Program-made: the position numbers and the translations under genes
The notes under the pieces: generated by a model
Told to the model about the DNA's origin: nothing
Database searches by the model: none
What the model saw: only the letters and a program-made list of their open reading frames with translations
In this document: positions 986-64,000 of the stretch, piece by piece
How the letters are laid out: the number at the start of each line of letters is the position of its first letter
Position numbering within the stretch: the stretch's first letter is position 1
Assembly: GCA_965196725.1 (NCBI GenBank)
Contig: OZ239770.1
Location: 78,018 to 142,017 of the forward strand
Origin: Mycoplasmatales bacterium
GTDB taxonomy: Bacteria; Bacillota_I; Bacilli_A; Mycoplasmatales; MT37
Length of the DNA stretch: 64,000 nt
Reading direction: 5' to 3'

Positions 986-1819
986 TTATAACTTATTTTT
1001 GAATGGTGGAAAGGAGAGTTTAAAGAGTTGACAAGCGTTTTGACTAGTCGTTCATAAAACATCGGCCAAACTACTTGTTTTTAGCTTCGCAACCAGTTGA
1101 GCAGTTTCAAGTAAATAATGGGGATAATTAATTTTGCCACGGTTGGATTGGGGTGCTAAATAGGGCGCATCAGTTTCTAAAACAAAGGCGGAAAGCGGAA
1201 GCATTTTAACTATTGTTCGTAAATTTTCGGCATTGGGAAAAGTTAAAATTCCTCCTAAAGCGAGTTTAAATCCCCGGGCAATTAATCAATTAGCGTCTTC
1301 TAAACTGCCCGCAAAACAATGACTGATCCCTTGCAAGGCAAAGGGTTTTAAAATGGTTTTTAAATCAGCAAAAGCTTTGCGAACGTGTAATAAAACTGGC
1401 AGTTGATATTTGGCGGCTAATTTTAATTGAGCTTTAAATAATCATTTTTGCCGGGCAATGGTGGCGAAATTATAGTGATAATCCAATCCAATCTCACCGA
1501 TGGCAACGATTTTATCTCGATTAGTTTGAATTAACATTTCCAACGCTTGAATAGTTTGGGAATCAACTTTATCCGCTTCATGCGGATGAATTCCGACCGC
1601 TGGTAAACAGTTCGGAAACTGCTGTGCTTGTTTAATAACAATTTGACTACTTGTTAAATCAGTGCCAACGTTAATTAAATACTGAGCATGAGCTGTCATT
1701 GCGGCATGATAAATCATTGCGGGGGTCATTTTTTGCTCGGCAAAGCGCTGGTCAAATAAATGACAATGCGTATCAATTCAACTTTTAAACGATGGTGTTT
1801 TAATTAATGATTTGGGCAT
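986..1819 (-). CDS. tatD: TatD-family metal-dependent hydrolase/DNase
   Basis: MPKSLIKTPSFKSWIDTHCHLFDQRF..AIGEIGLDYHY..LPVLLHVRKA..VLETDAPYL. Contiguous only with TGA=Trp; TAA stop at 986-988. Confidence 0.85.
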
Positions 1820-2246
1820 CGGGTTTACTTCGAAATGATTGTTGAATTTTTTCCATCTTACATTCTAATTGATAATGGAAACGAAATTTTTGAAAGAGAA
1901 CCCGAGCAAGGAAATTTTCAAAGGTTTTTTTGTTTTGGCGGAATTTACCGGTTAAAAGAGCGGATTGATTGCTTTTAATTTCGACAATAATTTGGTCACG
2001 ATTTTTGAAAAGAACTTTCAGCTTTTCAATCTGAATTTCATATTCAGTTTGAATAATATCAAACAAAACAGTTTCAATTGTTTTAATAATCGCGGCAAAA
2101 TTATAAAATAAAACTGTATAGCGCCGGAAAAAAACCAATTTTTCTGTTCTTAAAAGCGAATAAAAAACTGGTTGATCCGGTTTTTGTAAACGACGTTGAA
2201 ATTTTTTTATTTGGAAGAAAAAGAAAAAAACCTTTTCAATGTTCAT
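1800..2246 (-). CDS. Hypothetical basic 148-aa protein; overlaps yidC 3' end by 40 nt and tatD 5' end by 20 nt; contains the perfect match to CRISPR spacer 16
   Basis: Uninterrupted ORF (ATG 2246, TAA 1800-1802) in the same orientation as its neighbours. I recognise no family motif. Confidence 0.5.
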   Translation of the reverse strand: MNIEKVFFFFFQIKKFQRRLQKPDQPVFYSLLRTEKLVFFRRYTVLFYNFAAIIKTIETVLFDIIQTEYEIQIEKLKVLFKNRDQIIVEIKSNQSALLTGKFRQNKKTFENFLARVLFQKFRFHYQLECKMEKIQQSFRSKPDAQIIN

Positions 2247-3388
2247 GGTTTAATCACTCCTTTTTTCAGCAACGCACGTTGTTTTTTTTGTCATTTTTCA
2301 AGATAAAAAAAGATTATTTTTTGTAGAATTTCGAACAACGAACTAAAAATCCAGTAAATACTTGTTCCGGTTGGCACGATAAAAAAGAAGACCAAAAACA
2401 TAATTTTGAAAACTCATTTAAAGAGAAAACTACGTGTTTTATTCTCGGTTTTGGGATTTTGAATGATAATCACTTTCTGTTCTTTTTTAAAAAGGCGGTC
2501 AAAGCCAAAATTATCGAATAAAAACAAACTTAAATAAACTCCGACTGGAAGTAAATAAATCCATTGCAAAGCTTTTAAACTGTCTCAAATGGTGCGGGTT
2601 AGAGAAAAGGTTTCTGTTCCAGAATCTTTAATCATTCTCGTTGTTCTAACCATGATAAAAATCGCAAAAAGAAAAGGGGTAAAAAGAAAACTATTCAAGG
2701 CGTTGCCGGAGGGACTAACATTCATTTTGCGATACATCTTCATGATTTCGAATTGCATTTGTTGTTTGCTGTGAAAATCGTCTTTATTACGATATTTCGC
2801 TTTAATTTCGTTGGCTTTATGCTGTAAAATTTTCATTTTATCAGCGTTTTTATATGTTTTTCAAGCATTAAAACCAACAATAATTCGAATCATTAAACTG
2901 ACCAGAAAAATTGAAGAAATCATAATCCACAGATTACTTTGTGCATGTAAATGATTTGCTGATCACCCAAAAAGATAAGAAATTTTAACCGTGATTCAAC
3001 TCAAAGGAAAAACAAAACAGACATGGAAAAGGGATTGAGAATATTTTCAAATTAAAGCAACGTTATCAGCACCGTAATAATGGTATTGATAAAAATCATT
3101 GCCAACAAGATGAAAATAATGCCGTTTAAAACTTAAAGCGGTTTCATAACCTGCTAAAACTTCAAAAAAAGTGCCGGATAAATAATCTTTTTTACCATCA
3201 CTATCGGTAATTGCAGCGGTGTTAATTTGCTGGCGGAAGAATAAAATTCCTAATCCTCAGAAAAAATTTAAAAGCATAAAAAGAAAGATTATTAAGCGCA
3301 AACCCTGAAACAAAGAACGCAAAACTTGTTTGGTCTTAGCGGGTTTAATCTCTAAATTAGCGCGATAAAAAATGTTATGATTGGTCAT
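2207..3388 (-). CDS. yidC: Membrane protein insertase YidC/Oxa1 family
   Basis: Directly downstream of rnpA. MTNHNIFYRANLEIKP.., then ..KMKILQHKANEIKAKYRNKDDFHSKQQMQFEIMKMYRKMNVSP.. and hydrophobic segments. Frame is continuous across several TGA codons to TAA at 2207-2209. Confidence 0.85.
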
Positions 3389-19848: not shown

Positions 19849-20618
19849 TCTGGTGATTGCTTTTTCTCAACCCAAAATGCTAGTTCATGTGGTATTTTTT
19901 GACATCCCCCGTCATTTGTTTTTTAAAAAACCGAAAACAAGGAGAAGAGTATTATGAAAGGCAAAACCTCTCTTTTTAAAAAATGGTTAGAAAAGTCAAA
20001 ACGCAATAAACTGGTAACTTTTTCCACCGTTTTTCTGATTTCAACCCTCATCATTGCGGGAAGTTTAGGAGGTTATTTTGCAACCCGTTCCGATGAAGCA
20101 ACATCGAGCAATTTACAAACAATTGCCCCTGATGATTTTATTACTAAGAAACATCTGGACGACGAATTAGCCAAAAAATTAAATCTGGCTGATCTGAATA
20201 ATCAAATTAAAGATGCCCATTCCTCCCTAAAAACTGATGCCGCATTTCAACAACATCTTGCCGATGCATTAACAACCAAATTTGCTGATTATTTGCAAAA
20301 AAGCGCTTTTAACACCGAGTTAAAAACAGCAGTGCAAAGTTTAAAAACTGATAGCACTTTTCAAACCAATTTGGCCGAAGCATTAACCGCTGAATTTACC
20401 AAATATTATTCTAAAACCAACATTGATAGTAATTTCTACACCAAAACTGCGGTTAACACCCTGCTAAATTCGTATCTGCAAAAAACCAATTTAACCGCGG
20501 AAACCAAAGCGGTTATTACCCAATTAAAAACTGATTCCCAATTTCAAACAGATATTGCGGAAGCATTAAGAAGCACATTTGATAACTACTACACCAAACC
20601 CGAAGTTGATAGCAAACT
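19849..20618 (+). repeat. Copy 1 of duplicated 5'UTR + N-terminal coding cassette
   Basis: By eye identical to 22018-22788, except for one extra T in a T-run (T5 here, T6 in copy 2) and one synonymous SNP (20130 T versus 22300 C). Confidence 0.85.
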
Positions 20619-21828
20619 AACTGCTAAAGCCGACAAAACCTATACTGATCTTGCGCTGGCGCTTAAGACCGATCAAACCTACACCGATACCGAATTAGCC
20701 AAAAAAGCCGACAAAACTGATCTCTTCGAACCTGCGGCAGTTGCCCTAGAATTAAAATCTTCTTTAACACCGCGTTTGGCAACAAAAACAGAAGTTAATG
20801 CTAAAGCTTCCAAAACTTACACTGACACCGAATTAGCCAAAAAAGCCGACAAAACTTACACTGACACCGAACTAGCAAAAAAGGCAACCACAGTTGCTTT
20901 GCAAGATAAATTAGATAAAACAAGTTATGATTTTGCTCCCTTATTTGGTCAATATGAATTTGCCACTGATACTAACACCAATAAAAAGGTTCCTCGCTTA
21001 AAAGAATATGGGAAACTTTCCCAATCTAAAACACGCTTAGCCCATTATCCGCGTGAATATTCAACGCTTGAAAGTAATTTGATATCTTACGGAATTAGTT
21101 ATCTTAAACGCGCTAATAGCAAAGTGCTAGTCCAAGGGCATCGAAAAGGATGAGTTAAAGATCCAACACCGCCAACATGAGGTGATAATGCACTAACGTT
21201 GAATGCTGTTAAAGGTTATGATTGAAGCGCTTTGATCAATCAAGGAGAAACAAAAGACATTAGTGCTCAAACAGTTCCTAAAAGATTTTTTAAAGGCGAT
21301 AAATTAGTTATTAAATTCCATATACATTTGACTAATCATGGTCGAAATGGTTTATTTTTAATCTTTAAATATAATGGCGTTAATTTGAAAATTACAGATG
21401 CTAAATGGTGAAACCGTTGGCAGGGTTCTTCAGGAATTGATAGCGAATGAGCACGTAATACAACAAAAAGTGATTGTAATACTGTCGCTGTAGCACAATT
21501 TAATCCACTCAAATACAAATATCTCGAAGGTACATTTGTCATTCTTTTTGAAGATAATATTTACATTAGAATGGCAAATGGTGGTGTCGATAACGAAACT
21601 GATATTAACCATACAATGGCGCAAGCAACATTAGAATATCCTACAAATTACGATGATAATGTTGGAATTGAATTCTCTGGAATTGAAATTTCAGAAACGG
21701 CGTGGGCGACAGGAGCTCCTACAAGCAGTGGTTCTTCTCATAAATTTGATGTTGGAAGTAGAATTATTTTGAAGGAAAGTCCTTTTAACAAACAATTAGC
21801 TGCTGTTACACCAGGAGTAGAATTTTAA
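19954..21828 (+). CDS. Membrane-anchored repeat protein, paralogue A (624 aa)
   Basis: N-terminal TM anchor ..LVTFSTVFLISTLIIAGSLGGYF.. Helical LKTDxxFQxxLAEAL repeats and KADKTYTDTELAKK modules. Trp-rich C-terminal domain read through 6 TGA codons, frame checked. Confidence 0.75.
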
Positions 21829-22017: not shown

Positions 22018-22788
22018 TCTGGTGATTGCTTTTTTCTCAACCCAAAATGCTAGTTCATGTGGTATTTTTTGACATCCCCCGTCATTTGTTTTTTAAAAAA
22101 CCGAAAACAAGGAGAAGAGTATTATGAAAGGCAAAACCTCTCTTTTTAAAAAATGGTTAGAAAAGTCAAAACGCAATAAACTGGTAACTTTTTCCACCGT
22201 TTTTCTGATTTCAACCCTCATCATTGCGGGAAGTTTAGGAGGTTATTTTGCAACCCGTTCCGATGAAGCAACATCGAGCAATTTACAAACAATTGCCCCC
22301 GATGATTTTATTACTAAGAAACATCTGGACGACGAATTAGCCAAAAAATTAAATCTGGCTGATCTGAATAATCAAATTAAAGATGCCCATTCCTCCCTAA
22401 AAACTGATGCCGCATTTCAACAACATCTTGCCGATGCATTAACAACCAAATTTGCTGATTATTTGCAAAAAAGCGCTTTTAACACCGAGTTAAAAACAGC
22501 AGTGCAAAGTTTAAAAACTGATAGCACTTTTCAAACCAATTTGGCCGAAGCATTAACCGCTGAATTTACCAAATATTATTCTAAAACCAACATTGATAGT
22601 AATTTCTACACCAAAACTGCGGTTAACACCCTGCTAAATTCGTATCTGCAAAAAACCAATTTAACCGCGGAAACCAAAGCGGTTATTACCCAATTAAAAA
22701 CTGATTCCCAATTTCAAACAGATATTGCGGAAGCATTAAGAAGCACATTTGATAACTACTACACCAAACCCGAAGTTGATAGCAAACT
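22018..22788 (+). repeat. Copy 2 of duplicated 5'UTR + N-terminal coding cassette
   Basis: See 19849-20618. Confidence 0.85.
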
Positions 22789-24820
22789 TGCTCCCAAAGC
22801 CGACAAGACCTACACCGACACCGAATTAGCAAAGAAAGCCGATAAATCTTCAGTGTATACAAAGACCGATCTTGATACAAAGTTTCAAGAAGCACGAACA
22901 GTAATTAAAAAAAATATTTCAAATTTCACGCTTTTTTCTGATATTTCGGCAATCAAAATAAATACCAAGGTTTATTTTAATTTTGCCGGGACTTTTACAC
23001 CCACCGAATTAGAAACAAAACTTTTTATTGGAACACTAATTGTAAAGCATGCTGGTGATGAAGTTTATCTTGGTGAACTTTTTGATTACAGCGGCACCAA
23101 AGCCGACGGTTTTTATAAATTAACAGTTAGAGATACATTTGTTAACGGCACATCACAAGATAAAGTTAATTTCATTGCCACCAAAATGCCAATTGTTGAA
23201 TTTCAAAATTATTATTCAAAAACTGATGTGGATAGCAAACTTACTCCCAAAGCCGACAAAACCTATACTGATTTTGCGCTGGCGCTTAAGACCGATCAAA
23301 CCTACACCAACACTGAACTAGCAAAGAAGGCCGACAAAACTGATCTCTTCGAACCTGCGGCAGTTGCCCTAGAATTAAAATCTTCTTTAACACCGCGTTT
23401 GGCAACAAAAACAGAAGTTAATGCTAAAGCTTCCAAAACTTACACTGACACCGAATTAGCCAAAAAAGCTGACCAAACCTACACCGACACCGAATTAGCA
23501 AAGAAAGCCGATAAAACAACCTCTTACACCAAAACCGAAGTTGATGCCAAACTTACTCCCAAAGCCGACAAAACCTACACCGATACCGAACTAAATAAAA
23601 AGATTGAATATATTGAGGTTAATTTAGACACTCCTATTATTAACGGTAAAACAATTGGCGATTGAACAAGCAATGAATTGTCAGGACTTGATGGTTTGTT
23701 TAGTACTGGTAAAGTTTATAAAATTATTCATAACAGTAAAACCTTTCTTGTTCGTGCAGCAAACGAAATCAAAACTGCAAGCGAAATTGAGAATACTTTT
23801 TATGGCATGCAACTTGATGATTCCACAAATAAATACGGAATAGTAACAATTGCAATTGCAATCAAAAATTCAACGTCAACATTTAAAGTTCAATCAATTA
23901 ATTTTGAACAATTGAAAATCTTACTTAATCAAGCAGATTTTTATTACGATCCAATCAACAAAAACTATTTAGAAAATAGTTTAATTTTTAAAAACATTGA
24001 CGCTGCCCAACAAAATGTTTTATCGCGTAAAGAACGTTCGTATACAACTCATGCTGCCTTATTAGCAACTCAGGGAATTCAGTATCGTCTTTTAGGTCCT
24101 ACTCTAGCAGTAAACGGAGATTCTAAAATGGAAATTGTGGGCGCTCACAATGTGTGATATAAAAATACAATTAAACCTAAATGGTATACCAATAAATTTG
24201 AACCCAATGCTTATTATGGTTGAGATCAGGAAGCTGAAATCGGTTACGGAGAAAGCAACACGCTGCCTAATGCGGAAACTAAAAAATTCTATAAAGGTGA
24301 TATTATTCACTTTAAAATCCATGGTCATACTAACATTTTAGGAAAATGAGCAGGTATTAAATTTGTTTTAAAAGATAAAAACAACACTGAGTTCGCTACA
24401 ACTGATGCAATATTTTCCAATGACTATGGTTCTAGAAATGAAATTCATAAGTTTACAAGTCAATCAAAAACAAACTCGTCTCATTTAATGGTAAATCTTT
24501 TTGCTTCTAAATATTTTGAATTTAGCGGAAAAATTAGTTTTGAAAATGCCCGAATTTATATTTCAGCAGTTGGATGAATTCATCAGCTAGGACATGATAT
24601 GAATACTATTAGCACTGATATGGCATTAGCTTATCCAGGCGGTTTTGCTGATGATGGCATTACATTGGCTGCTATTGAAATTGGCGAAGTAGGAACTATG
24701 AGCACACTTGAAATAACTGGAACTGCTGTTGAATGAAGTGCGGGCAGTCGAATTTTTTTAAGAGATGATATTAGCAACAGACAGTTAAAAATTGTCAAAA
24801 AAACCCTAATTAATAACTAG
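22124..24820 (+). CDS. Membrane-anchored repeat protein, paralogue B (898 aa)
   Basis: First 221 aa identical to paralogue A. Has extra internal domains. C-terminal head is distantly similar to A (KKFYKGDIIHFKIH versus KRFFKGDKLVIKFH; AGSRIFLRDD versus VGSRIILKES). Frame checked to TAG at 24818. Confidence 0.75.
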
Positions 24821-52497: not shown

Positions 52498-54162
52498 GTG
52501 TTAGTTGCGATTGCAAAAGAATTACTGATTCAAGGTTTAAATCAATTAAATTATCAAGTTCCTGCCCAATTTCGGATTTGAATTCCAAAGCAAATTGGCG
52601 ATGCAAAAAATGATGTTTCCACTAATCTTTGTATGGTTATTGCTTCTTTAACACGAACTGATCCGCACCAATTTGCTTCTCGTTTAATTCGTGTGCTGGA
52701 AAAATCCAATCCTAATTTAGAAAGTTTAACGTATCAAAATGGTTATTTAAATTTTACTTTTACGCCTTCGTTTCGGAATCGTGTCATTACGGAGATTTTA
52801 ACTTCCAAGCAAACCTATGGCAAATTGGATTTGGGAAAAGGGCAACGGTTAAATTATGAATGGATTTCGGCTAATCCGACTGGTTATTTACACATTGGTC
52901 ATGCCCGAAATGCTGTGTTAGGAATGGCGATTTCCAATTTGTTAGAATTTGTGAATTATGATGTGACCCGTGAATTTTATGTTAATGATCAAGGAAAACA
53001 AATTTTTAATTTAGGTAAAAGCATTTTTTATGCTTATTGTCAGCAATTAGATCAACCAGTTGCCAAAGTTGATCAAGAAATTTATGTTAATGCTGAAATT
53101 AGTCAGGCGGCCAGGGAATTAATTAACCGGGTTAAGAACCGCTATTTAAACAGTGATTTTTTCAATAATCGTAGTGTTCAGACTGATTTTGCTAATTTTG
53201 GCAAGCAGTTTTTTCTGCCTAAAATCAAAAAAATCTGCAGTCAACTTGGCATTCAATTTGATGTCTGAACATTTGAATCTGCTTTATTTCAAAAGAATCG
53301 TGATCAAGAATTTCTTCATCGCTTGCACCGGCAAAAGTTGTTGTACCAAAAAGCTGGTGCCACCTGGTTAAAAATTGGTGATCAACCAAGCGCTGATGAT
53401 TTTGTCCTTTTTAAAAGCAGCGGGGAAGCAACTTATTTTCTCGGTGATTTAATGTATCATGCTAATAAATTTGACCGTGGTTTTAAGATCTGCATTGATT
53501 TATGAGGTGCTGACCATCATGCCCATTATTTAAAGCTTCAAAAAGCGTTAGCGGTTTTAAAATATCCCGCCCATAATTATCACGTTAATTTGATGCAATT
53601 GGTTAAAATTGTTCGCAATCAACAAAGCTTAAAGATGTCAAAGCGAAAAGGAACGGCTTATTATTTGCATGATTTATACAATGAAGTTGGGAATGATTTT
53701 TTCAAATTCATGCTCCTTTCTTCCAAACGGAACAATAAATTTACCTTCGATCTTACTTTGGTCAAGCAAAAAACCACCCAAAATCCGTTGTTTTATTGTC
53801 AATATGCCTATGCGCGTGCTTGCAAGTTGTTAACAATACAGCATGTTTCGCTTCCTCAAACTGCATTTGCCAACGCATCATTTGCCGTTTTAAATAGTCG
53901 CTCGGAGCGGAAATTAATTCTTGCTTTGCATCAATTTCCGCATTATCTGGAAAAAGCCGTCACTTTTTATGAACCAGCAATTTTAATTGAATATGTCCAA
54001 AAACTGGCGAAAGCATTTCATCTTGTTTATGAAAATGATCGAATTAAGCAAATTAGTGATTTAAATTTAAAACACGCCCGTTTAGCTTTAATTAAAGCGT
54101 TTACGCTTGTCTTCAAGCAGATCTTTACCTTATTTGGAATTTCAACCCCTGAACGAATTTAA
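52498..54162 (+). CDS. argS: Arginyl-tRNA synthetase
   Basis: SANPTGYLHIGHARNAVLG (HIGH), MSKRKG. GTG start after AAGGAG. Four ORF pieces in one frame. Confidence 0.9.
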
Positions 54163-54237: not shown

Positions 54238-57200
54238 ATGAATAGTAAATTAAAATATTATCTTGGCTTGGATCTAGGAATTTCTTCGGTTGGTTGAGCG
54301 ATTATGGCTGAAGATCCCAAAACCGCCAAACATACCTTATATGATTTTGGCGTTCGTTTGTTTGATGTGCCGGAAAATAGGGATAAACAATCAAATGCGA
54401 GTTTAAGACGTGATTTACGATCAAATCGTCGCTTAATTCGCCGCCGCAAGCATCGTATTTTAATGTTGAAAAGATTTCTATCCAGAATAAAATTTTTGAC
54501 AGAAGATCAATTTCAAACTGAATTTAACTTAAAATCAACAAACAAATTAATTAAAAAAGATGGTCGTTGAACAACAGAAACTGGATATTATAATACTTAT
54601 GTTTTAAAGGTTAAAGGTTTAACGGAGAAATTAGACAAACCTGAGTTATATTCTGTTTTATTAAATTATGCCAAAAAACGTGGTTATCTTAATAAATTTG
54701 CAATTGAAAATGATAAAAAACTTACAAAAACAGAACAATCAAATCAAAACAAAGCAATTGAAGAAGCAGATAATTTAGTTAAGAATTATGATGATTCAAT
54801 AGCAAAAGCAATTGTTTATGATAAAAGATTTGCCTTTGTTAAAAATGTAAAAGATCCGAAAACAAAAATTTTAATTGCTAACAACAAATCAGAGCTTGTG
54901 GAATTTCAAGGAAAAATGATTAATCGTTATCTTTTGGAAAAAATTTCCGCCAAAGAAGCAGAAAATGCTAAAACTAGTCAGTTTAATTGATTATTTGCTC
55001 GTCGCGATTATAGAAAAGAGTTACAGAATCTTCTTTTATATCAAAGTCAATTTCATCCAGAATTAAACACTAATAATTGTGATCAGATTATTGATATTAT
55101 TTTTCAAACTCGCGACTTTGAAATGGGTGCTAAATGCCGTGATTGTATTAAAAATATGATTGATAAAACAGAAGATTATATTGCGAATACAAACAATATT
55201 AGAAACTGTAAAAGACTAGATTGTTCGAATTTTGGTAATTTTTGAGATCTAAAAGGAAAATGTCACTTTTATCCCGAGGAAAGACGCCAAACAAAGGCTT
55301 CAGTAACATACATTATTTTTTATTTTATTAATGAATTATCAAAAATTTGAAGTTTTCTTGAACAGCGCAAAAACAGTAAATTAAAATTTACAGCTGCTGA
55401 TAAAAATGAAGTTTTATCTAGTTTATTTTTTAATGAATGAAAAACACATGCGCAAGCTTTGAAAATAATTCAACAAAAAATTAGTGAAACCTCAATATGA
55501 CGAGATTATGGAGATAAAAATTATTTTGATAAGAAGAAATATCCGATTTGAAAAGAAGATACAAAAGATGAGCAAACAGGTTTATCTTTTAAAAAACCAA
55601 TTTTATTACAAGCATGTTCTAAAATTCCTGCTTTAACATCCCAATTGAAACAGATCGAATTAACATCAAACAAGGTTTTTAATTGGGAGCAAAATATTAT
55701 TGAAAAAATAGGAGAAACCTGCTCGCTTTGAAAAACACCAATAAGAAGGGAATACGCATTAAAAAAACTGTTTTTATCAAAAAATATCGGTTTGAATAAA
55801 GAAGAATTTGCTCTTCTTCTTAAAGAATTGAAAGAAATAGAAGCATCTCCGGGGAACGCATCCGCAAAATATATGCAAGAAGCTATTAGAGATTATTTTG
55901 ATAAAGGCACATTATATGGTGATTTTGCCTGAAATTTTCAAAAAAATCATAACACTATCAAAAACAAAATTGTTAAAAACCAAACCATTTTTGCTCATTT
56001 TATCGATAAAGATATGATGTCGAATCCAGTTGTTATGCGGGCAATTAGTCAGACACGTAAAATTCTCAAAGCACTGCATCAAAATATTCAATTTGAATCT
56101 ATTGTTGTTGAAGTAGCAAGAGATTTGTATTCTACCCCTGAACAACGCAACGCTATTGAGAAAATAAATATAAATAATTATAACGAAAAAAAACGAATCA
56201 TTGAAAGGTTAAAAAAACGTGGTTTTGAAAACATTACTAAACGGAAAATTTTAGAATACAGTTTATGAGAACAACAGAAAGGAATCTGTATCTACAGTGG
56301 TAAACCAATTGATTTTAACCCTTCTCCTAATGTAGTATGAGAAATTGATCATATTATTCCTCAGAGTTTATGTCAAAATGATACAGCGACTAATAAAGTT
56401 CTTGTTTTGAGGACAGAAAATCAAAGTAAAGGCAAAAAAATTCCTTATTGATGATTGCAAGGTAAAAATTGATCAGATTTTTCTTCTCGTGTCAAATCAT
56501 TAAAATTACCTAAAGTTAAAACTAATCTTTTGTTAGCAAAAACTGTTGAAGAGGCAATTGAAGCTTTTTCTAGTCGTAATTTAAATGATACGCGTTATAT
56601 TTCTAAGTGAATTTCTAACTATATTAAAAGTGAAATTAGTCACTTTAATTTACCAACAAAAGTTTTTGTAGTTCCTGGTGCTTTAGTCTCTCATCTTCGC
56701 AGAAGTTGATTACGACAGTCGGCATGAGGATTATATCAAAAAGTTCGTGATATTACTCCTTATCATCACGCAATCGATGCCATTGTTATTTGTCAATTTA
56801 AAAAACAAATGGATATTCAATTAGCAGTTGATTTATTGAAACTAAATCAAATAAGATGGAAAAACATTAGTGAAAGCGAAAAAAAAGCAGAAGAAAAACA
56901 GTTTCTTGAAGTAAGTCAAAAAACCGCTAATATTCTTGAAAAAGCTTTTGGTAAGCAAGATGTTGATGAATATTCTAAAAAAATCAAAGAGGCATCTCGA
57001 AAAACTTTTTTGATGTTTGATTTTTATATTTCTAATTTGAAAGAAGAAGTTGAGAAAAGAATTCCCGTGAAATTAAAAAAAGTCGACTGTGAATGCCGAA
57101 AAAGAAGTATTTCTTCACTTTCAACCCCTTCGCCAGTTGATAATTGCCGAATTTGTTATGGAAGCAAAAAAATTCCTAGATATGACAGAATTTTGAATGT

Positions 57201-57942
57201 GGATGAATTTTATAACGAAAATTCTGAACTTTCAAATTCAATTTACATTAATTTTCGATACCCGCACATTTCACACATGATAAATCATAAAGTTCCCAAA
57301 CGAATTAACAGCAGTGAAAAAATAGGTTTCTTTTTTACAGGTTATACAAAAACAAAAAAAATGATATTTGAAAAAGCAAAAAACAAACTTTTCAGAATTT
57401 GATTTAAAAATCGCAAATTAAAATTGGAAGATTTGAATTTAAAGTTAGATTTCAAGTATGTAAAAGAAAAAGATCTACAAAGTTGATTGAACGAATTTAG
57501 CAGTGAAAATCGTGATTTTTTGGTTAAAACATCTAAAACAGGAGATCTTTTGGGGGTTATACCTATAAGTCGATTTTTTGGCTTAGAAATTAAAAAAGAT
57601 AAATTAGTGTGGTTAACAAACAAAACCGCTCAAGAATATGCGAAGAAAAACATCATCCATAAATCATTACATAAGATTTTAATTCCCAATAATTTGGTGG
57701 AGTATTATGATCCAAAACTTAGAAAAAATATTATTAAAGTGTTTAAATCACGTAAAGACAAAGATAAAGCATATTTACATATCAATGGTTTAATGAAAAC
57801 CGATGAAAAAACTATTTTTGGATTTAAAAATTCCACTGAAACACTTAAGAGAATTTCTAATGATTCACTTAAAATTATAAGAGTTAATTTGTTGGGTGAT
57901 TTATTGACCAAAAAAAATATATTTACTTCTATTAAAAGATAA
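54238..57942 (+). CDS. cas9: CRISPR-associated endonuclease Cas9 (1234 aa)
   Basis: RuvC-I YYLGLDLGISSVGWA; Arg-rich bridge helix RRDLRSNRRLIRRRKHR; HNH WEIDHIIPQS..NKVLV; RuvC-III YHHAIDAIVI. Whole frame translated: no TAA/TAG, many TGA=Trp. Confidence 0.95.
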
Positions 57943-57958
57943 GAAATTACTATCTACT

Positions 57959-58023
57959 GTTTTTATTCTATTAAAAATGGCGACTGAATCAAGCGGTGAT
58001 AGTTGAAAATGGACTAGTTTTTT
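57959..58023 (+). ncRNA. tracrRNA candidate (anti-repeat plus short tail and T6)
   Basis: 57959-57989 is the perfect reverse complement of repeat nt 6-36. 57990-57994 (CAAGC) extends pairing over nt 1-5 with one mismatch and one G-U. Tail GGTGATAGTTGAAAATGGACTAG ends in TTTTTT at 58018-58023. Strand is inferred (see findings). Confidence 0.7.
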
Positions 58024-58053
58024 GTTAAAATTAAGGTAATTGTTTGATGTGAA

Positions 58054-58389
58054 ATGATTGTTAAGTCACGGTTACGCATGATGCGAATTCTTTTAATGTA
58101 TGATTTGCCCAGCACAACCAAAAAAGCTCAGCAAATCTATCGTGAATTTAATGGTTTTCTTCTTAAAAATGGTTTTTATATGTTACAAGAATCAGTTTAT
58201 TGCTGTTTTGCAAAAAGTTATATGACAGCCAAATTAATTGTGACAAAGATTAAGAAAAACAGTCCGATTCTAGGTGACGTGCGTTGTTTAATAATTACCG
58301 AAAAACAATATCAGGAGATCAGTTTTTTTAGTGGAAAACCCAGTTTTCAGGAAGAATTGTTTAACCCGGAACCCATCTTAGAAATTTAA
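58054..58389 (+). CDS. cas2: CRISPR-associated endoribonuclease Cas2
   Basis: ..RMMRILLMYDLPSTTKKAQQIYREFNGFLLKNGFYMLQESVY..ITEKQY.. This pattern matches type II-A Cas2 (MRMILMFDMP..FRKFL..G..QFSVY..TEKQF). Confidence 0.85.
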   Translation: MIVKSRLRMMRILLMYDLPSTTKKAQQIYREFNGFLLKNGFYMLQESVYCCFAKSYMTAKLIVTKIKKNSPILGDVRCLIITEKQYQEISFFSGKPSFQEELFNPEPILEI

Positions 58390-58391
58390 AC

Positions 58392-59573
58392 ATGAAAACA
58401 ATTGAAATTAGTAACCAACTTTTTGAAAAGCAAAAAATTACCTTTGTTAATAAAATTGCGATTATTACCGGGCAAAATCGAGCGGGGAAAACGATGTTGC
58501 TAGATCAAATTGCAAGCGGTTTAGAAGGAAATAGCTTGCAAGTTTTGGTTGATAATCGAATGGTGAAAAAAGGGGAGTTTCAGGTTGTTTATTTAACAGA
58601 TGATCGCCAATTTAATGAAGAAATTAAATTAACCAAAACAAGTCGGTTTCGGAATCAATTAATTAATCGAATTAATAAAACTTTAATTCACAACGAAAAT
58701 TATTTGAATTTAAATCAACAAATTGAAGAATTGGCGGAAAAAATTAAAACAATTACTAATTTGGCAATTAGTCCAAACGAAACAGCATTTACGACTAAAA
58801 AAATTAAATTAACATTTGATACATCAAAAGTCAATCTGGAAAAAATTGTTGATAAATTACTCGAAATTGATTTAATCGATCAGCAAACGCAAACCCGGTT
58901 GGACGAAAAACATTTCAATAACTTTTTGTTAAGAATGATTGTTTTTAATATTTTGCTGACCGGATTAGATTGAGAAGATAAGCAACGTCCAATCGTAATT
59001 TTAGTTGATAATCCGGCGGTTTATGCGAATTATCAAACTTTAACTGAGTTTGCCTTTGAATTAAAAAAACTCCTCAAATTTCCCCATTTATATCTTTGTT
59101 TAGCCACCGGAAACGCCGAATTGGTTGCAAGTTTAAACTGTGATTTAGAAGCTATTCATTTGATTAAAGAACGTGAAATCATTGCTTTTAGAGGATATGA
59201 GGAAATTATCGAAGAAGCAATTGCGCTTTTTAGTTTTATTAGCAACAATGACTATAAAGATTGGCAACAATTTAAAATTAATTTAAAAAATGTGTTGGAA
59301 AAAGCCGATTTTGAACGTGAATTTAGTTTATTTTGAAACACGGAAACGATTAACTGGTTTAAAATGCTTTACGCTAGTAAAATTGTTTTTGCGGCGGAAA
59401 AAGAAATAATTAATTTAGATGATTATGTTAGCAAAAACTTTACCTTGATCATTCGAACTAATCTTTTAAGACAAATTATTCTTTTTTTATACGCAAAGAA
59501 TTTGAATATTCCTGTGATTTTTAGTACAAATTTGCAGGCAAAACTAAAAAAAATTAGTTTTTTGTGGAACTAG
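58392..59573 (+). CDS. P-loop NTPase in the csn2 position (Csn2-like, 393 aa)
   Basis: Walker A ITGQNRAGKTML; Walker-B-like RPIVILVDNP (Asn where the catalytic Glu is expected). Three in-frame pieces joined by TGA. Lies between cas2 and the array. Confidence 0.6.
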
Positions 59574-59704
59574 TTTTTTTAAAAAAATGTAATTTTTACA
59601 AAAAAATTCTAAAAAAGCAATATGTTTTTTCAATAAGCAATGTTTATAAAATATTAAATATTGTTGGTGATATGAGTTTGATATTATGTTTTTTTGCTAT
59701 AATG
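59574..59704 (+). promoter_or_regulatory. CRISPR leader with extended -10 TGCTATAAT (59695-59703) abutting repeat 1
   Basis: AT-rich 131-nt region between the csn2-like stop and the first repeat. The TGnTATAAT ends 1 nt before the repeat. Confidence 0.5.
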
Positions 59705-62700
59705 GTTTTATTCAGTCGCCATTTTTAATAGAATAAAAACATTCTTTTATTTGAAATAAGATGGAAAAAAGTTTTATTCAGTCGCCATTTTTAATAGAAT
59801 AAAAACTTTCGCCTTCGTAAAGATGTTCCCCCGCCGGTTTTATTCAGTCGCCATTTTTAATAGAATAAAAACGTTAAATTACCAAATGATATTTTTTCAA
59901 CCGTTTTATTCAGTCGCCATTTTTAATAGAATAAAAACACAATTCGGCGATCGTTTGAACGGTGAAGCGTTTTATTCAGTCGCCATTTTTAATAGAATAA
60001 AAACTTTCTTTTCTCAAATCGGCAAAAAATACTGGTTTTATTCAGTCGCCATTTTTAATAGAATAAAAACTTTTGCTTTGGCAAAAAAACCCTGTCCCAA
60101 GTTTTATTCAGTCGCCATTTTTAATAGAATAAAAACGGAAAAATTTAATTACATATTAGAACGACGGTTTTATTCAGTCGCCATTTTTAATAGAATAAAA
60201 ACGCGATTTGTTGGATTTGTTAGAAGTTAAGAGTTTTATTCAGTCGCCATTTTTAATAGAATAAAAACCTGTTTTTTTCAAACTACCCTTCAACCGCTGT
60301 TTTATTCAGTCGCCATTTTTAATAGAATAAAAACATGTTATTAACAAGAAAGATTTGCTCGTCAGTTTTATTCAGTCGCCATTTTTAATAGAATAAAAAC
60401 AGCAGTTCCCTGTCTCGCGTGGTGCGGGGGGTTTTATTCAGTCGCCATTTTTAATAGAATAAAAACGAAGGTTTGCTTCTCTTAAACAGACCAAAGGTTT
60501 TATTCAGTCGCCATTTTTAATAGAATAAAAACTCTTTAATTGGCGAAGTCGCGGTTGGGATTGTTTTATTCAGTCGCCATTTTTAATAGAATAAAAACCT
60601 CCTACTCCCAGTCCACCTCTTGCGCCGCGTTTTATTCAGTCGCCATTTTTAATAGAATAAAAACTTTGACACCGCGCCGATTACCGACGCGGGCGTTTTA
60701 TTCAGTCGCCATTTTTAATAGAATAAAAACATTTTGCCGCGATTATTAAAACAATTGAAAGTTTTATTCAGTCGCCATTTTTAATAGAATAAAAACTAAC
60801 AAAGTTAAAAACCGGACAAAAAGTCAGTTTTATTCAGTCGCCATTTTTAATAGAATAAAAACTTGCCGACCAAGCAAACCCCTTAATTGTTAGTTTTATT
60901 CAGTCGCCATTTTTAATAGAATAAAAACATTTATGGGTTGTTGTATTACCGTATATGGGTTTTATTCAGTCGCCATTTTTAATAGAATAAAAACCTGCTT
61001 GATCCACGGGAACCCGAACGAGTGGTTTTATTCAGTCGCCATTTTTAATAGAATAAAAACCACCTTTAAGACCTTTTTCGCCAGTGATGCGTTTTATTCA
61101 GTCGCCATTTTTAATAGAATAAAAACCTGATGGGCGGCTTCAAAGGCAGTGCGAGCGTTTTATTCAGTCGCCATTTTTAATAGAATAAAAACATTATTAC
61201 GCCCTTAATTACGGCATCCAGTGTTTTATTCAGTCGCCATTTTTAATAGAATAAAAACAACGACGCTTTATTTAGCAATAACGTGGCTGTTTTATTCAGT
61301 CGCCATTTTTAATAGAATAAAAACTAATAAATCAGTGTTAATTTTGTTTTCGGTGTTTTATTCAGTCGCCATTTTTAATAGAATAAAAACCTTTCAAAGA
61401 CGGCTACACCGTTTAAGCGCGTTTTATTCAGTCGCCATTTTTAATAGAATAAAAACAAATAAAGGAGGCGACATTAGACCCCTAAAGTTTTATTCAGTCG
61501 CCATTTTTAATAGAATAAAAACAACTTACGAAATTGAAGCAGTTTTTAACAAGTTTTATTCAGTCGCCATTTTTAATAGAATAAAAACCGCACTTAGCTA
61601 GCAAGCTTGTTTTTTGCTGTTTTATTCAGTCGCCATTTTTAATAGAATAAAAACCTTTTTAATACTTAGTATTTTTGCCTTCTGGTTTTATTCAGTCGCC
61701 ATTTTTAATAGAATAAAAACAAATAAAGATAAAGGAGGATTAGACCCTAAGTTTTATTCAGTCGCCATTTTTAATAGAATAAAAACTACGGCTTTGTCAT
61801 GTCGCCCTCTTCAAAGGTTTTATTCAGTCGCCATTTTTAATAGAATAAAAACAAAAAAAGGGCGCTTCTTTATTAACTGTTAAGTTTTATTCAGTCGCCA
61901 TTTTTAATAGAATAAAAACGTTCATTGGTGAATAAGTCCTTCGTTGAGCGTTTTATTCAGTCGCCATTTTTAATAGAATAAAAACCAGGTTTGATAAAGT
62001 AATGACACCCTTTAAGTTTTATTCAGTCGCCATTTTTAATAGAATAAAAACGATTTAGTGAGCCTTGCTTTTAACGAAGCAGTTTTATTCAGTCGCCATT
62101 TTTAATAGAATAAAAACTGAACAATGATTGTTTTTTGCTCTAATAAAGTTTTATTCAGTCGCCATTTTTAATAGAATAAAAACTTCGAAACGGGCAAGAC
62201 GGGGGAACGATAAGTTTTATTCAGTCGCCATTTTTAATAGAATAAAAACTACTTCATCTAAAACATCTCGTCCAACCAAGTTTTATTCAGTCGCCATTTT
62301 TAATAGAATAAAAACTCATTTCTCTTCAAACCATAAATAAAAAAGGTTTTATTCAGTCGCCATTTTTAATAGAATAAAAACTTTCTTGTTAATAACATAA
62401 AACGGATGGGAGTTTTATTCAGTCGCCATTTTTAATAGAATAAAAACAAGACGAACAACTTCGGCCAAGCGCGAAGAGTTTTATTCAGTCGCCATTTTTA
62501 ATAGAATAAAAACTTTTTTGCATTGAAAATTTATTAAATATGTGTTTTATTCAGTCGCCATTTTTAATAGAATAAAAACGTATTTGCTTGCTTTTGCCTT
62601 TCTGAGGACGTTTTATTCAGTCGCCATTTTTAATAGAATAAAAACTCGTAAAATTTGGTTGTTAAAATAACAATGGTTTTATTCAGTCGCCATTTTTAAT

Positions 62701-64000
62701 AGAATAAAAACCGGTTGTTGGCGGACTAGGCGCCCTTGGTGGTTTTATTCAGTCGCCATTTTTAATAGAATAAAAACTGTTAATTTTCGTTTCCATCTTA
62801 AAAGCGGGTTTTATTCAGTCGCCATTTTTAATAGAATAAAAACACCTTGTTGACCAGGCACACCTTGGATACCGTTTTATTCAGTCGCCATTTTTAATAG
62901 AATAAAAACAAAACGGCTAGGACTTCCTTTCGAAAGAACGTTTTATTCAGTCGCCATTTTTAATAGAATAAAAACTTTTGAAGCACTTTTAACCCATGAA
63001 AAAACGTTTTATTCAGTCGCCATTTTTAATAGAATAAAAACAAATAAAAAAAAAGGAGATAGACCCCTTGAGTTTTATTCAGTCGCCATTTTTAATAGAA
63101 TAAAAACGCGGACGGGCAAACGACCGACGCCGGGAATGTTTTATTCAGTCGCCATTTTTAATAGAATAAAAACGCGGGCGCTGATGAAAGGGATATTGCT
63201 TGAGTTTTATTCAGTCGCCATTTTTAATAGAATAAAAACAAAATGCGAACGCCAAGCTTAGTAGCTTAGGTTTTATTCAGTCGCCATTTTTAATAGAATA
63301 AAAACAATGAAGAAATTGTCATGATTGTTTCACCAGTTTTATTCAGTCGCCATTTTTAATAGAATAAAAACAAATAAAAAAAAAGGAGATAGACCCCTCA
63401 AGTTTTATTCAGTCGCCATTTTTAATAGAATAAAAACAAAGGGTTGAAGCATTAAGTTCGCCCGCACGTTTTATTCAGTCGCCATTTTTAATAGAATAAA
63501 AACCGGTGATTTGGTCGTTCCGTTTGAACCGCTGTTTTATTCAGTCGCCATTTTTAATAGAATAAAAACAAAAAATAGCAAATCATGAATGTTGCGCTTG
63601 TTTTATTCAGTCGCCATTTTTAATAGAATAAAAACGTTAACTCCTTTGGGGCGCTTTGCTCACTAGGTTTTATTCAGTCGCCATTTTTAATAGAATAAAA
63701 ACGACGGCGGATTAGAGACCATGATTATAACTGTTTTATTCAGTCGCCATTTTTAATAGAATAAAAACGAACATGATTTTTACTTTGACTATCAGTAATG
63801 TTTTATTCAGTCGCCATTTTTAATAGAATAAAAACCAAATGGTGGTGTTGATAATGAAACTGATAGTTTTATTCAGTCGCCATTTTTAATAGAATAAAAA
63901 CGATTAAGTCAGCCTTAATCCCTCGTTCAATGTTTTATTCAGTCGCCATTTTTAATAGAATAAAAACCTAAAATTTCGATAAACGAATCGCTTACAATGT
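59705..64000 (+). CRISPR. CRISPR array: 65 complete 36-nt repeats (GTTTTATTCAGTCGCCATTTTTAATAGAATAAAAAC) and 65 spacers; array continues past window end
   Basis: 66-nt periodicity from 59705. Spacers are 30 nt, except four of 31 nt (61853, 63636, 63769, 63968). No repeat variant noticed by eye. The last 2 nt (GT) start a 66th repeat. Confidence 0.98.

What the first reader, a model, noticed from the sequence alone, without database searches (positions are those of the whole stretch)
57943..58053. No cas1: cas9 is followed by only 111 nt (the tracrRNA) and then cas2
The canonical type II-A order is cas9-cas1-cas2-csn2. Here the cas9 stop (57942) and the cas2 start (58054) are separated by 111 nt, which the anti-repeat/tracr candidate occupies. 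No frame in 54238-59573 gives a Cas1-like protein. Yet the array holds at least 65 spacers, including families that look like repeated re-acquisition. There are three possibilities. cas1 may lie elsewhere, for instance beyond the array. It may have been deleted recently, leaving a frozen array with an orphan cas2. Or adaptation may use something else.
Basis: partly seen in the sequence, partly recalled or inferred. Interest (0 to 1): 0.7.

Follow-up and report, generated by a model that had tools for sequence, protein, structure and literature searches.

The report
Rearranged CRISPR locus; cas1 encoded elsewhere
The cas9–cas2 gap really lacks cas1, but an intact cas1 gene sits elsewhere on the same small genome, so this looks like an ordinary type II-A CRISPR system whose genes were reshuffled, not a Cas1-less one.

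Summary
Read with genetic code 4 (TGA = Trp), cas9 (54238-57942) is followed by 111 nt and then cas2 (58054-58389). Next come a 393-aa csn2-position gene (58392-59573), a leader, and an array of 65 identical repeats that runs off the window. No Cas1-like sequence exists anywhere in the 64 kb.

In all seven related genomes examined, cas1-cas2-csn2-like-array is one contiguous block. In the closest relatives that block faces cas9 across a very large array (about 15 kb in the one fully assembled case).

The 111-nt gap looks like a rearrangement scar:
- It holds a solo inverted repeat (34/36), in the place and orientation of the terminal repeat next to cas9 in the two sister genomes whose array abuts cas9.
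- It holds a 19-nt block identical to the closest relative's cas1 stop codon plus cas1-cas2 spacer.
- It shows no significant predicted structure and has none of the conserved tracrRNA-like element found beside cas1 in relatives. It is probably not the tracrRNA.

Verdict: an ordinary type II-A system with cas1 unlinked. Interest is low.

The parts
52498..54162 (+). argS (arginyl-tRNA synthetase), the conserved left neighbour of cas9 in this clade
   Evidence: Code-4 ORF. It is 60-76% identical to ArgS next to cas9 in L001-L003. Synteny ADI-OTC-DcuC-CK-ArgS-cas9 is seen.
54238..57942 (+). cas9, intact, 1234 aa under code 4
   Evidence: TIGR01865 E=1.8e-133 over the full length, with HNH_4 and RuvC_III domains. 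It is identical to P0001 on the 399,034-bp contig. It is only 46-49% identical to the closest relatives' Cas9, an outlier against its neighbours.
57959..57994 (-). Solo CRISPR repeat in inverted orientation (34/36; the first 31 nt are perfect). Read as an orphaned terminal repeat and left junction of the rearrangement, not a tracrRNA.
   Evidence: It is the only repeat-like match outside the array. In L001 and L002 the degenerate terminal repeat of the array lies 41 nt and 9 nt after the cas9 stop, in the same orientation.
58003..58033 (+). Remnant of the cas1 3' tip, plus the cas1 stop codon and cas1-cas2 spacer. Includes an extended -10 promoter-like site (TTGAAA-17-TG-TAAAAT).
   Evidence: 58015-58033 (TAGTTTTTTGTTAAAATTA) is identical to the cas1 stop plus intergenic sequence of L005. 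The motif TTTTTGTTAAAAT is conserved in L006 and L007. The promoter-like site at 58003-58031 matches 10/12 with a TG. Promoter function is inferred.
58054..58389 (+). cas2, intact, 111 aa
   Evidence: PF09827 E=3.8e-13 and TIGR01573 E=7.5e-19. It is 76-85% identical to the Cas2 that directly follows cas1 in L005-L007.
58392..59573 (+). 393-aa P-loop protein in the csn2 position (probable large Csn2)
   Evidence: Only weak AAA/RecF-type hits and no Csn2 Pfam or NCBIfam hit. Orthologues always follow cas2 and precede the array in L005-L011. The best fold match is Stu0660, named only as a S. thermophilus crystal structure; that it is the large Csn2 is my own knowledge. That match has E=1.3e-3 but comes from a low-confidence model (pLDDT 50).
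59574..59704 (+). CRISPR leader with a conserved extended -10 box (TGCTATAAT, 59695-59703) directly upstream of repeat 1
   Evidence: TTTTGyTATAATGG is invariant in the window and in L005-L008.
59705..64000 (+). CRISPR array: 65 identical 36-nt repeats (GTTTTATTCAGTCGCCATTTTTAATAGAATAAAAAC) and 64 complete spacers of 30-31 nt. It continues beyond the window.

Best explanation
[quoted passage not shown] Its locus has been rearranged.

In the closest relatives the layout is tracrRNA-like element <- | cas1 -> cas2 -> csn2-like -> leader-array -> <- cas9 <- argS. The adaptation operon and cas9 converge across a very large array (15 kb in the one fully assembled case).

In the window's genome the block cas2-csn2-like-leader-array has the opposite orientation relative to argS-cas9. 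One breakpoint is at the terminal repeat beside cas9. The other is at the cas1/cas2 boundary. The 111-nt cas9-cas2 gap is the scar of this event. It consists of an orphaned inverted terminal repeat, about 20 nt of unclear origin, and then the old cas1 stop codon with the cas1-cas2 spacer.

cas1 itself is intact (P0137, 298 aa) and lies elsewhere on the same 399-kb contig. Most likely it is at the far end of the array, beside pyrG and the real tracrRNA. From there it would supply Cas1 in trans to Cas2, the Csn2-like protein and Cas9 for normal leader-end spacer integration.

Shown:
- the gene content and junction sequence of the window;
- the absence of cas1 from the 64 kb;
- the contiguous cas1-cas2-csn2-like layout in seven relatives;
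- the existence of a full-length Cas1 on a contig with the same length and sources.

Inferred:
- that this contig is the window's contig (about 0.95);
- that the event was an inversion and that cas1 lies beyond the array (about 0.6);
- that cas2-csn2 are expressed from the conserved TGTTAAAAT motif or by cas9 read-through;
- that adaptation is currently active.
For: - Cas1 profile search: P0137 is 298 aa, carries PF01867, is 87% identical to the closest relative's Cas1, and has longest_contig = 399,034 with sources ncbi+ena.
- P0137 is full length, ending ...LPEIIKKD against ...LPEIIKKE in the relative. It scores 282 bits on TIGR03639, type II Cas1 (cutoff 120).
- P0137's identity to genomes E, A and B (86.9, 77.5, 74.5%) follows the same rank order (E highest, B lowest) as the window's ArgS, ADI and Csn2-like protein; Cas2 ties E and A.
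- In L005, L006, L007, L008, L009, L010 and L011, cas1-cas2-csn2-like are contiguous, with the array following in the five loci that extend far enough (L006-L009, L011).
- L002 and L007 overlap on one circular 420,644-bp contig. Merged, they give argS-cas9-[232 repeats, 15.3 kb, opposite orientation]-csn2-like-cas2-cas1-pyrG.
- Junction homologies are shown: the solo inverted repeat next to cas9, and the 19-nt cas1-stop/spacer block in front of cas2.
- Nothing in the window looks decayed. cas9, cas2 and the csn2-like gene are intact, all 65 repeats are identical, and the leader and its promoter box are conserved.
- Inversions within Mollicute CRISPR loci have been reported before (PMC6882279).
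Against: - The DNA around cas1 in this genome could not be retrieved.
- The position and orientation of cas1 are unknown.
- A single-cut inversion between cas1 and cas2 does not explain one detail. The window keeps about 11-14 nt resembling the last cas1 codons plus a TAG, yet P0137 is complete to its C-terminus.
- A perfect self-targeting spacer raises the possibility that some part of the system is not fully functional.
Confidence: 0.8

Rival explanations
1. One reading: the 111-nt gap encodes the functional tracrRNA, with the anti-repeat at 57959-57994 followed by a short tail and a T-run.
For: The element is 34/36 complementary to the repeat and lies on the same strand as the array, so an RNA made from it could pair with pre-crRNA. 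It would be transcribed at least as a cas9 3' extension, because no terminator separates it from cas9. Ipoutcha et al. report cas9-tracrRNA-cas1 as the usual order in Mollicutes (PMC6882279). The window's Cas9 is strongly diverged from the relatives' Cas9 and could use a different tracrRNA.
Against: The fold is no better than shuffled sequence (z=-0.28; 71 of 200 shuffles fold at least as well). There is no G+C-rich hairpin or terminator. Complementarity is nearly perfect over the full length, which is what a displaced array repeat looks like. The terminal array repeat occupies the equivalent spot next to cas9 in two sister genomes. Relatives carry a conserved, structured element with a split anti-repeat, an AAGGCC nexus-like motif, a GGGGATCCC hairpin and a terminator. 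It lies between pyrG and cas1 and folds with z=-2.2 and some compensatory changes. That element has no counterpart in the window.
Confidence: 0.1
2. cas1 is genuinely absent from this genome. P0137 comes from another contig that happens to have the same length, leaving a frozen array with an orphan cas2.
For: The contig link is indirect, since no coordinates or accession could be obtained.
Against: P0137's identity pattern fits the window lineage. All repeats are identical and cas2, the csn2-like gene and the leader are intact.
Confidence: 0.03
3. Assembly artefact: the cas2-csn2-array block was mis-oriented by the assembler, and the true genome has the relatives' layout.
For: CRISPR arrays break or confuse assemblies. 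L001/L006 is a linear contig broken inside its array. The left junction also lies at a repeat copy.
Against: The sequence following the inverted repeat is unique (about 20 nt, then the cas1-stop block, then cas2), not a spacer-repeat continuation. A mis-join at a repeat would not create it. The relatives' assemblies carry very high coverage labels in their contig names (970x, 2251x).
Confidence: 0.05
4. cas1 moved by some other route, such as translocation or a multi-step rearrangement. It sits at an unrelated site rather than at the far end of the array.
For: The apparent duplication of the cas1 tip is not explained by one simple inversion. Cas9 shows anomalous divergence, which suggests additional recombination at this locus.
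Against: Synteny on the cas9 side is fully conserved. pyrG, rpoB and rpoC, the neighbours of cas1 in relatives, are absent from the window, as expected if they lie beyond the array. One inversion with a breakpoint between cas1 and cas2 explains both the orientation change and the loss of linkage.
Confidence: 0.2

Closest known systems
Canonical type II-A CRISPR-Cas (S. pyogenes; S. thermophilus CRISPR3): cas9-cas1-cas2-csn2-array with tracrRNA
   Same: It has the same protein set. Cas9 has HNH and RuvC domains, Cas1 is the type II kind (TIGR03639), Cas2 is present, and a P-loop protein sits in the csn2 position. Repeats are 36 nt, spacers are 30 nt, and the leader faces the adaptation genes.
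   Different: The gene order differs. cas1 is unlinked from cas2-csn2, and cas9 is followed directly by cas2. The csn2-position protein matches no Csn2 sequence model. The tracrRNA is not identifiable in the window.
Loci of the sister genomes (ENA contigs ctg35098 and ctg3641; CP138194.1 'Mycoplasmatota bacterium Ac_bin3.5'; Logan ERR1529708)
   Same: These are orthologous genes: Cas1 72-87%, Cas2 76-85%, csn2-like 57-84%. Repeats are nearly the same, the leader box is the same, and the argS-cas9 synteny is the same.
   Different: There, cas1-cas2-csn2-like-array is one block convergent with cas9. Here the block minus cas1 is co-oriented with cas9. The window's Cas9 is only 46-49% identical to theirs.
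Mollicute type II loci with inversions (Ipoutcha et al. 2019, PMC6882279) and the Ca. Spiroplasma holothuricola locus
   Same: These are type II systems in minimal genomes. Inversions of locus parts are reported for several Mycoplasma strains. Ca. S. holothuricola has cas9 divergent from cas1-cas2-csn2-like-array (L009).
   Different: The passages of Ipoutcha et al. that I read mention inversions but give no case that separates cas1 from cas2. I did not inspect their Figure 1 data, so I cannot say that no such case exists.

Membership tests
[quoted passage not shown] | Cas9 effector with RuvC and HNH nuclease domains | tested here: met
   TIGR01865 E=1.8e-133 over the full length; PF13395 and PF18541.
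[quoted passage not shown] | Cas1 integrase encoded by the genome | tested here: met
   It is not in the 64-kb window. P0137 (298 aa; TIGR03639, 282 bits) lies on a contig with the same length (399,034 bp) and sources as the window's Cas9 and 393-aa protein. The link is by contig fingerprint, not by coordinates.
[quoted passage not shown] | Cas2 | tested here: met
   PF09827 at 49.9 bits (cutoff 23.8); TIGR01573 at 67.8 bits (cutoff 24.5).
[quoted passage not shown] | Csn2, the subtype signature protein | tested here: inconclusive
   There is no Csn2 hit in Pfam, NCBIfam or PDB sequences; only weak P-loop hits appear. The best fold match is Stu0660 (E=1.3e-3, TM 0.26-0.29), which I know from memory to be the large Csn2 of S. 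thermophilus; one search names it only as a crystal structure. The match rests on a pLDDT-50 model. The gene's position after cas2 and before the leader is conserved in seven related loci.
[quoted passage not shown] | tracrRNA with an anti-repeat and a Cas9-binding scaffold | tested here: inconclusive
   The window has only a bare inverted repeat with no scaffold. Relatives have a conserved structured candidate beside cas1. That region of the window's genome could not be read. Rfam gave no hits.
[quoted passage not shown] | Operon order cas9-cas1-cas2-csn2 (typical, not strictly defining) | tested here: not met
   The order in the window is cas9-111 nt-cas2-csn2-like.
Cas1-less or degenerate ('frozen') CRISPR locus | No cas1 anywhere in the genome | tested here: not met
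   P0137 lies on the 399,034-bp contig.
Cas1-less or degenerate ('frozen') CRISPR locus | Decay of the remaining adaptation genes, leader or repeats | tested here: not met
   cas2 and the csn2-like ORF are intact, all 65 repeats are identical, and the leader box is conserved.
tracrRNA (as the identity of 57943-58053) | Structured 3' scaffold (nexus, hairpins, terminator) after the anti-repeat | tested here: not met
   Minimum free energy is -16.1 kcal/mol against a shuffle mean of -15.4 (z=-0.28). No terminator-like site is present. There is no similarity to the relatives' candidate.

The most novel reading that the evidence does not exclude
The orphaned inverted repeat, now transcribed as part of the cas9 3' end and immediately upstream of cas2-csn2, may have acquired a function. 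It could act as a scaffold-less second anti-repeat that pairs with pre-crRNA, for RNase III processing or to couple Cas9/crRNA levels to cas2-csn2 expression. Because it is now inverted relative to 65+ array repeats, it could also act as a recombination partner that flips the cas2-csn2-leader segment, giving a switchable adaptation module. In either case cas1 would be expressed from a separate unit, uncoupled from cas2.
Probability: 0.08. Interest if true: 0.5.

Novelty: new member of a known kind. Interest (0 to 1): 0.2.

Why it matters
A large, uniform CRISPR array without any Cas1 would have been a real puzzle, because it would imply an alternative spacer-integration route. It is not one: the genome encodes an intact type II Cas1.

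What remains is modestly useful:
- It is a reminder that code-4 genomes and window-limited views produce apparent 'missing' genes.
- It may be a natural example of cas1 working unlinked from cas2-csn2. Whether cas1 is expressed and adaptation is active was not tested.
- It documents that these roughly 0.4-Mb Mollicute genomes devote up to about 3.6% of their DNA to one array. Their named relatives are a hadal sea-cucumber Spiroplasma and an uncultured Mycoplasmatota MAG.

Tried and rejected
- Exact-protein look-ups of the window's Cas2, Cas9 (P0001) and Cas1 (P0137) returned nothing. This genome is not in the gene-position index, so the DNA beyond the array could not be read.
- The genome-contig scan with Cas9 found nothing. 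The second scan, with the Cas1 alignment, found relatives but not this species.
- The metagenome-contig scan with the Cas1 alignment found nothing.
- Cluster look-up gave no names or accessions.
- Rfam at gathering thresholds gave no hit in the window or in L005-L007.
- The Cas2 half of the concatenated Cas2+393-aa query returned no hits; only the 393-aa part did.
- The PDB sequence search with the csn2-like profile gave only marginal P-loop hits. The AlphaFold model was poor (pLDDT 50), so the Stu0660 match is only a hint.
- blastn of the array against the phage collection gave one spurious hit. No spacer is shared with the relatives' arrays.
- A cas1 pseudogene or remnant ORF in the window is rejected.
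- A second diverged cas2/csn2 locus on the same contig is considered unlikely. Only one 393-aa homologue carries the 399,034 fingerprint.

Full report
**Reading frame and gene content**

The window is 33.7% G+C. Under the standard bacterial code all long genes are broken at TGA. With code 4 (TGA = Trp) they become clean ORFs.
- argS ends at 54162.
- cas9 is 54238-57942 (1234 aa).
- A 111-aa ORF is 58054-58389.
- A 393-aa ORF is 58392-59573.
- A CRISPR array starts at 59705.

Cas9 matches TIGR01865 over its full length (E=1.8e-133) and carries HNH and RuvC-III domains. The 111-aa protein is Cas2, above the curated cutoffs of both PF09827 and TIGR01573. The 393-aa protein gives only weak P-loop/RecF-type matches.

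**Checking the observation**

The cas9 stop and the cas2 start are separated by exactly 111 nt. The array has 65 perfectly identical 36-nt repeats and 64 complete spacers of 30-31 nt, and it runs off the window end. The only repeat-like sequence outside it is a reverse-complement copy at 57959-57994, matching 34/36.

tblastn under code 4, using Cas1 proteins from three close relatives, finds nothing in the 64 kb (best E=0.29). The neighbouring Cas2 and 393-aa proteins of those same relatives hit at 76-85% and 57-84% identity.

**What relatives look like**

The window's Cas9 is identical to P0001, recorded on a 399,034-bp contig. Its nearest homologues (42-46% identity) sit in the same ADI-OTC-DcuC-carbamate kinase-ArgS-cas9 synteny, two of them on contigs of 412,791 and 420,644 bp (the third on a 13-kb contig). 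In those two, cas9 is followed within 9-41 nt by a very large array in the opposite orientation, with no cas genes in between.

Searching with the 393-aa protein found its orthologues on those same contigs. Their loci read rpoC<-rpoB<-pyrG<- | cas1->cas2->393-aa gene->array.

L002 and L007 overlap on one circular contig. Merged, they give argS-cas9-[232 repeats, 15.3 kb]-393aa-cas2-cas1-pyrG, so cas9 converges with the adaptation operon across the array.

Four further loci keep cas1-cas2-393aa contiguous, while the position of cas9 varies:
- CP138194.1, 'Mycoplasmatota bacterium Ac_bin3.5';
- Ca. Spiroplasma holothuricola;
- a Mollicutes MAG;
- a Spiroplasma endosymbiont.

The window's genome is the only one of eight in which cas1 is not directly upstream of cas2.

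**Where cas1 is**

A profile of the relatives' Cas1 proteins retrieved P0137. It is 298 aa, carries PF01867, and is 87% identical to the closest relative's Cas1. Its longest contig is 399,034 bp and its sources are ncbi+ena. That is the same fingerprint as the window's exact Cas9 (P0001) and exact 393-aa protein (P0126).
- P0137 is complete to its C-terminus.
- It scores 282 bits on the type II Cas1 model TIGR03639.
- Its identities to the three sister genomes (86.9, 77.5, 74.5%) rank them in the same order as the window's ArgS, ADI and 393-aa protein; Cas2 ties the first two.

I take this as strong, though indirect, evidence that the window's own genome encodes an intact cas1 outside the window. 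The DNA there could not be fetched, so its position is inferred.

The orientation of cas2-393aa-array is flipped relative to argS-cas9 when compared with the sister genomes. pyrG, rpoB and rpoC are absent from the window. The simplest history is therefore an inversion with one breakpoint at the array's terminal repeat next to cas9 and the other at the cas1/cas2 boundary. That would leave cas1 beside pyrG at the far (trailer) end of the array. I put this at about 0.6.

**Anatomy of the 111 nt**

The parts of the gap, in order, are:
- 16 nt after the cas9 stop;
- the inverted repeat (31 perfect nt, then 3 of 5 matching), in the place and orientation of the degenerate terminal repeat beside cas9 in L001 and L002;
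- about 20 nt of unclear origin, whose last 11-14 nt resemble the final cas1 codons;
- TAGTTTTTTGTTAAAATTA, identical to the cas1 stop codon plus cas1-cas2 spacer of L005 and conserved in L006 and L007;
- 20 nt leading to the cas2 start.

The conserved TTTTTGTTAAAAT motif coincides with an extended -10 promoter-like site. I infer that it may drive cas2-csn2. No terminator separates cas9 from cas2.

One detail is unexplained. The window seems to keep a cas1 tip even though P0137 is full length.

**Is the gap the tracrRNA?**

Probably not. It folds no better than shuffled sequence (z=-0.28).

In the relatives, the pyrG-cas1 intergenic region carries a conserved element on the strand opposite cas1. 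Its parts are:
- GGTAAC, a variable hairpin, then GTAATAAGAT (the two flanking pieces are complementary to the 5' part of the repeat);
- AAGGCC..., then a GGGGATCCC hairpin;
- an intrinsic terminator.

This element folds with z=-2.2 and shows some compensatory changes, although only three distinct sequences were available. nhmmer, blastn and motif searches find no counterpart in the window. The real tracrRNA is thus most likely next to cas1, outside the window.

**State of the system**

Nothing looks decayed. The repeats are identical. The leader, with its TGyTATAAT box directly before repeat 1, is conserved across five genomes. Two spacer pairs indicate repeated sampling of the same targets.

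The 393-aa protein is probably a large Csn2. Its position is conserved, and its best fold match is Stu0660, which I know from memory to be the large Csn2 of S. thermophilus. The model behind that match is poor, so membership is unproven.

**Comparison and verdict**

By content this is a type II-A system, with a non-canonical and lineage-specific gene order. Inversions in Mollicute CRISPR loci have been noted before (PMC6882279). Marine-invertebrate Mollicutes with reduced genomes are known for extensive arrays (PMC11535214).

Interest is low (0.2). The residual points are the unlinked cas1, the scar structure and a few side observations.

Noticed in passing
window 60731-60760 (spacer 16) versus window 2072-2101 (minus strand): Spacer 16 matches the organism's own chromosome 30/30, inside a hypothetical code-4 ORF (1800-2249, minus strand) that lies between a 403-aa ORF and a 292-aa ORF. 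I take these to be YidC-like and TatD-like from their sequences only; no family search was run on them. The 3' flank in spacer sense is CTGTTTTGTT. A perfect self-target suggests a non-permissive PAM, impaired interference, or a population-consensus effect.
   Followed up: partly
window 63836-63865 (spacer 63) versus window 21575-21604: Spacer 63 matches a 633-aa ORF (19927-21828) at 28/30, and both mismatches are synonymous third-codon positions. That ORF has a paralogue at 22097-24820 whose first 40 listed residues are identical. The spacer seems to derive from a homologous gene in another strain or element.
   Followed up: partly
window 54238-57942 (cas9): Cas9 is an outlier in divergence. 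It is 48.9% identical to the closest genome, while ArgS is 76%, ADI 93%, and Cas1, Cas2 and Csn2-like are 84-87%. That is lower than the 63.7% between two more distant sister genomes. This suggests allele replacement or accelerated evolution of cas9 in this lineage, possibly linked to the rearrangement.
   Followed up: partly
L005 8645->8489 (minus strand); L006 8637->8478; L007 8662->about 8530: The candidate tracrRNA of the sister genomes has its anti-repeat split by a variable hairpin (GGTAAC[hairpin]GTAATAAGAT). It also carries a second repeat-like piece (TTTATTCTATTAAAAA) between the scaffold and the terminator. To my knowledge this is not the usual tracrRNA layout.
   Followed up: partly
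L002+L007 (circular 420,644-bp contig); L001+L006 (412,791 bp); L004 (461,754 bp): These genomes of about 0.4 Mb carry very large arrays. One has 232 repeats over 15.3 kb (3.6% of the genome), one has at least 213 repeats, and one has at least 108. A 2024 paper gave 107 spacers as the second highest count among Mollicutes, so these are larger.
   Followed up: partly
L004 14003-15976: In the more distant relative (Cas9 34% identical), a 657-aa ORF with no Pfam hit lies between cas9 and the inverted array.
   Followed up: no
window 1-64000: No Rfam family reached its gathering threshold anywhere in the 64-kb window. That means no tRNA, rRNA or other curated RNA in 64 kb of a roughly 0.4-Mb genome.
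   Followed up: no
window 60335-60364 (spacer 10) and 62382-62411 (spacer 41); 63042-63071 (spacer 51) and 63372-63401 (spacer 56): Spacers 10 and 41 overlap by 17 nt on opposite strands of the same target. Spacers 51 and 56 are identical over their first 27 nt. Both pairs look like repeated acquisition from the same invader.
   Followed up: yes
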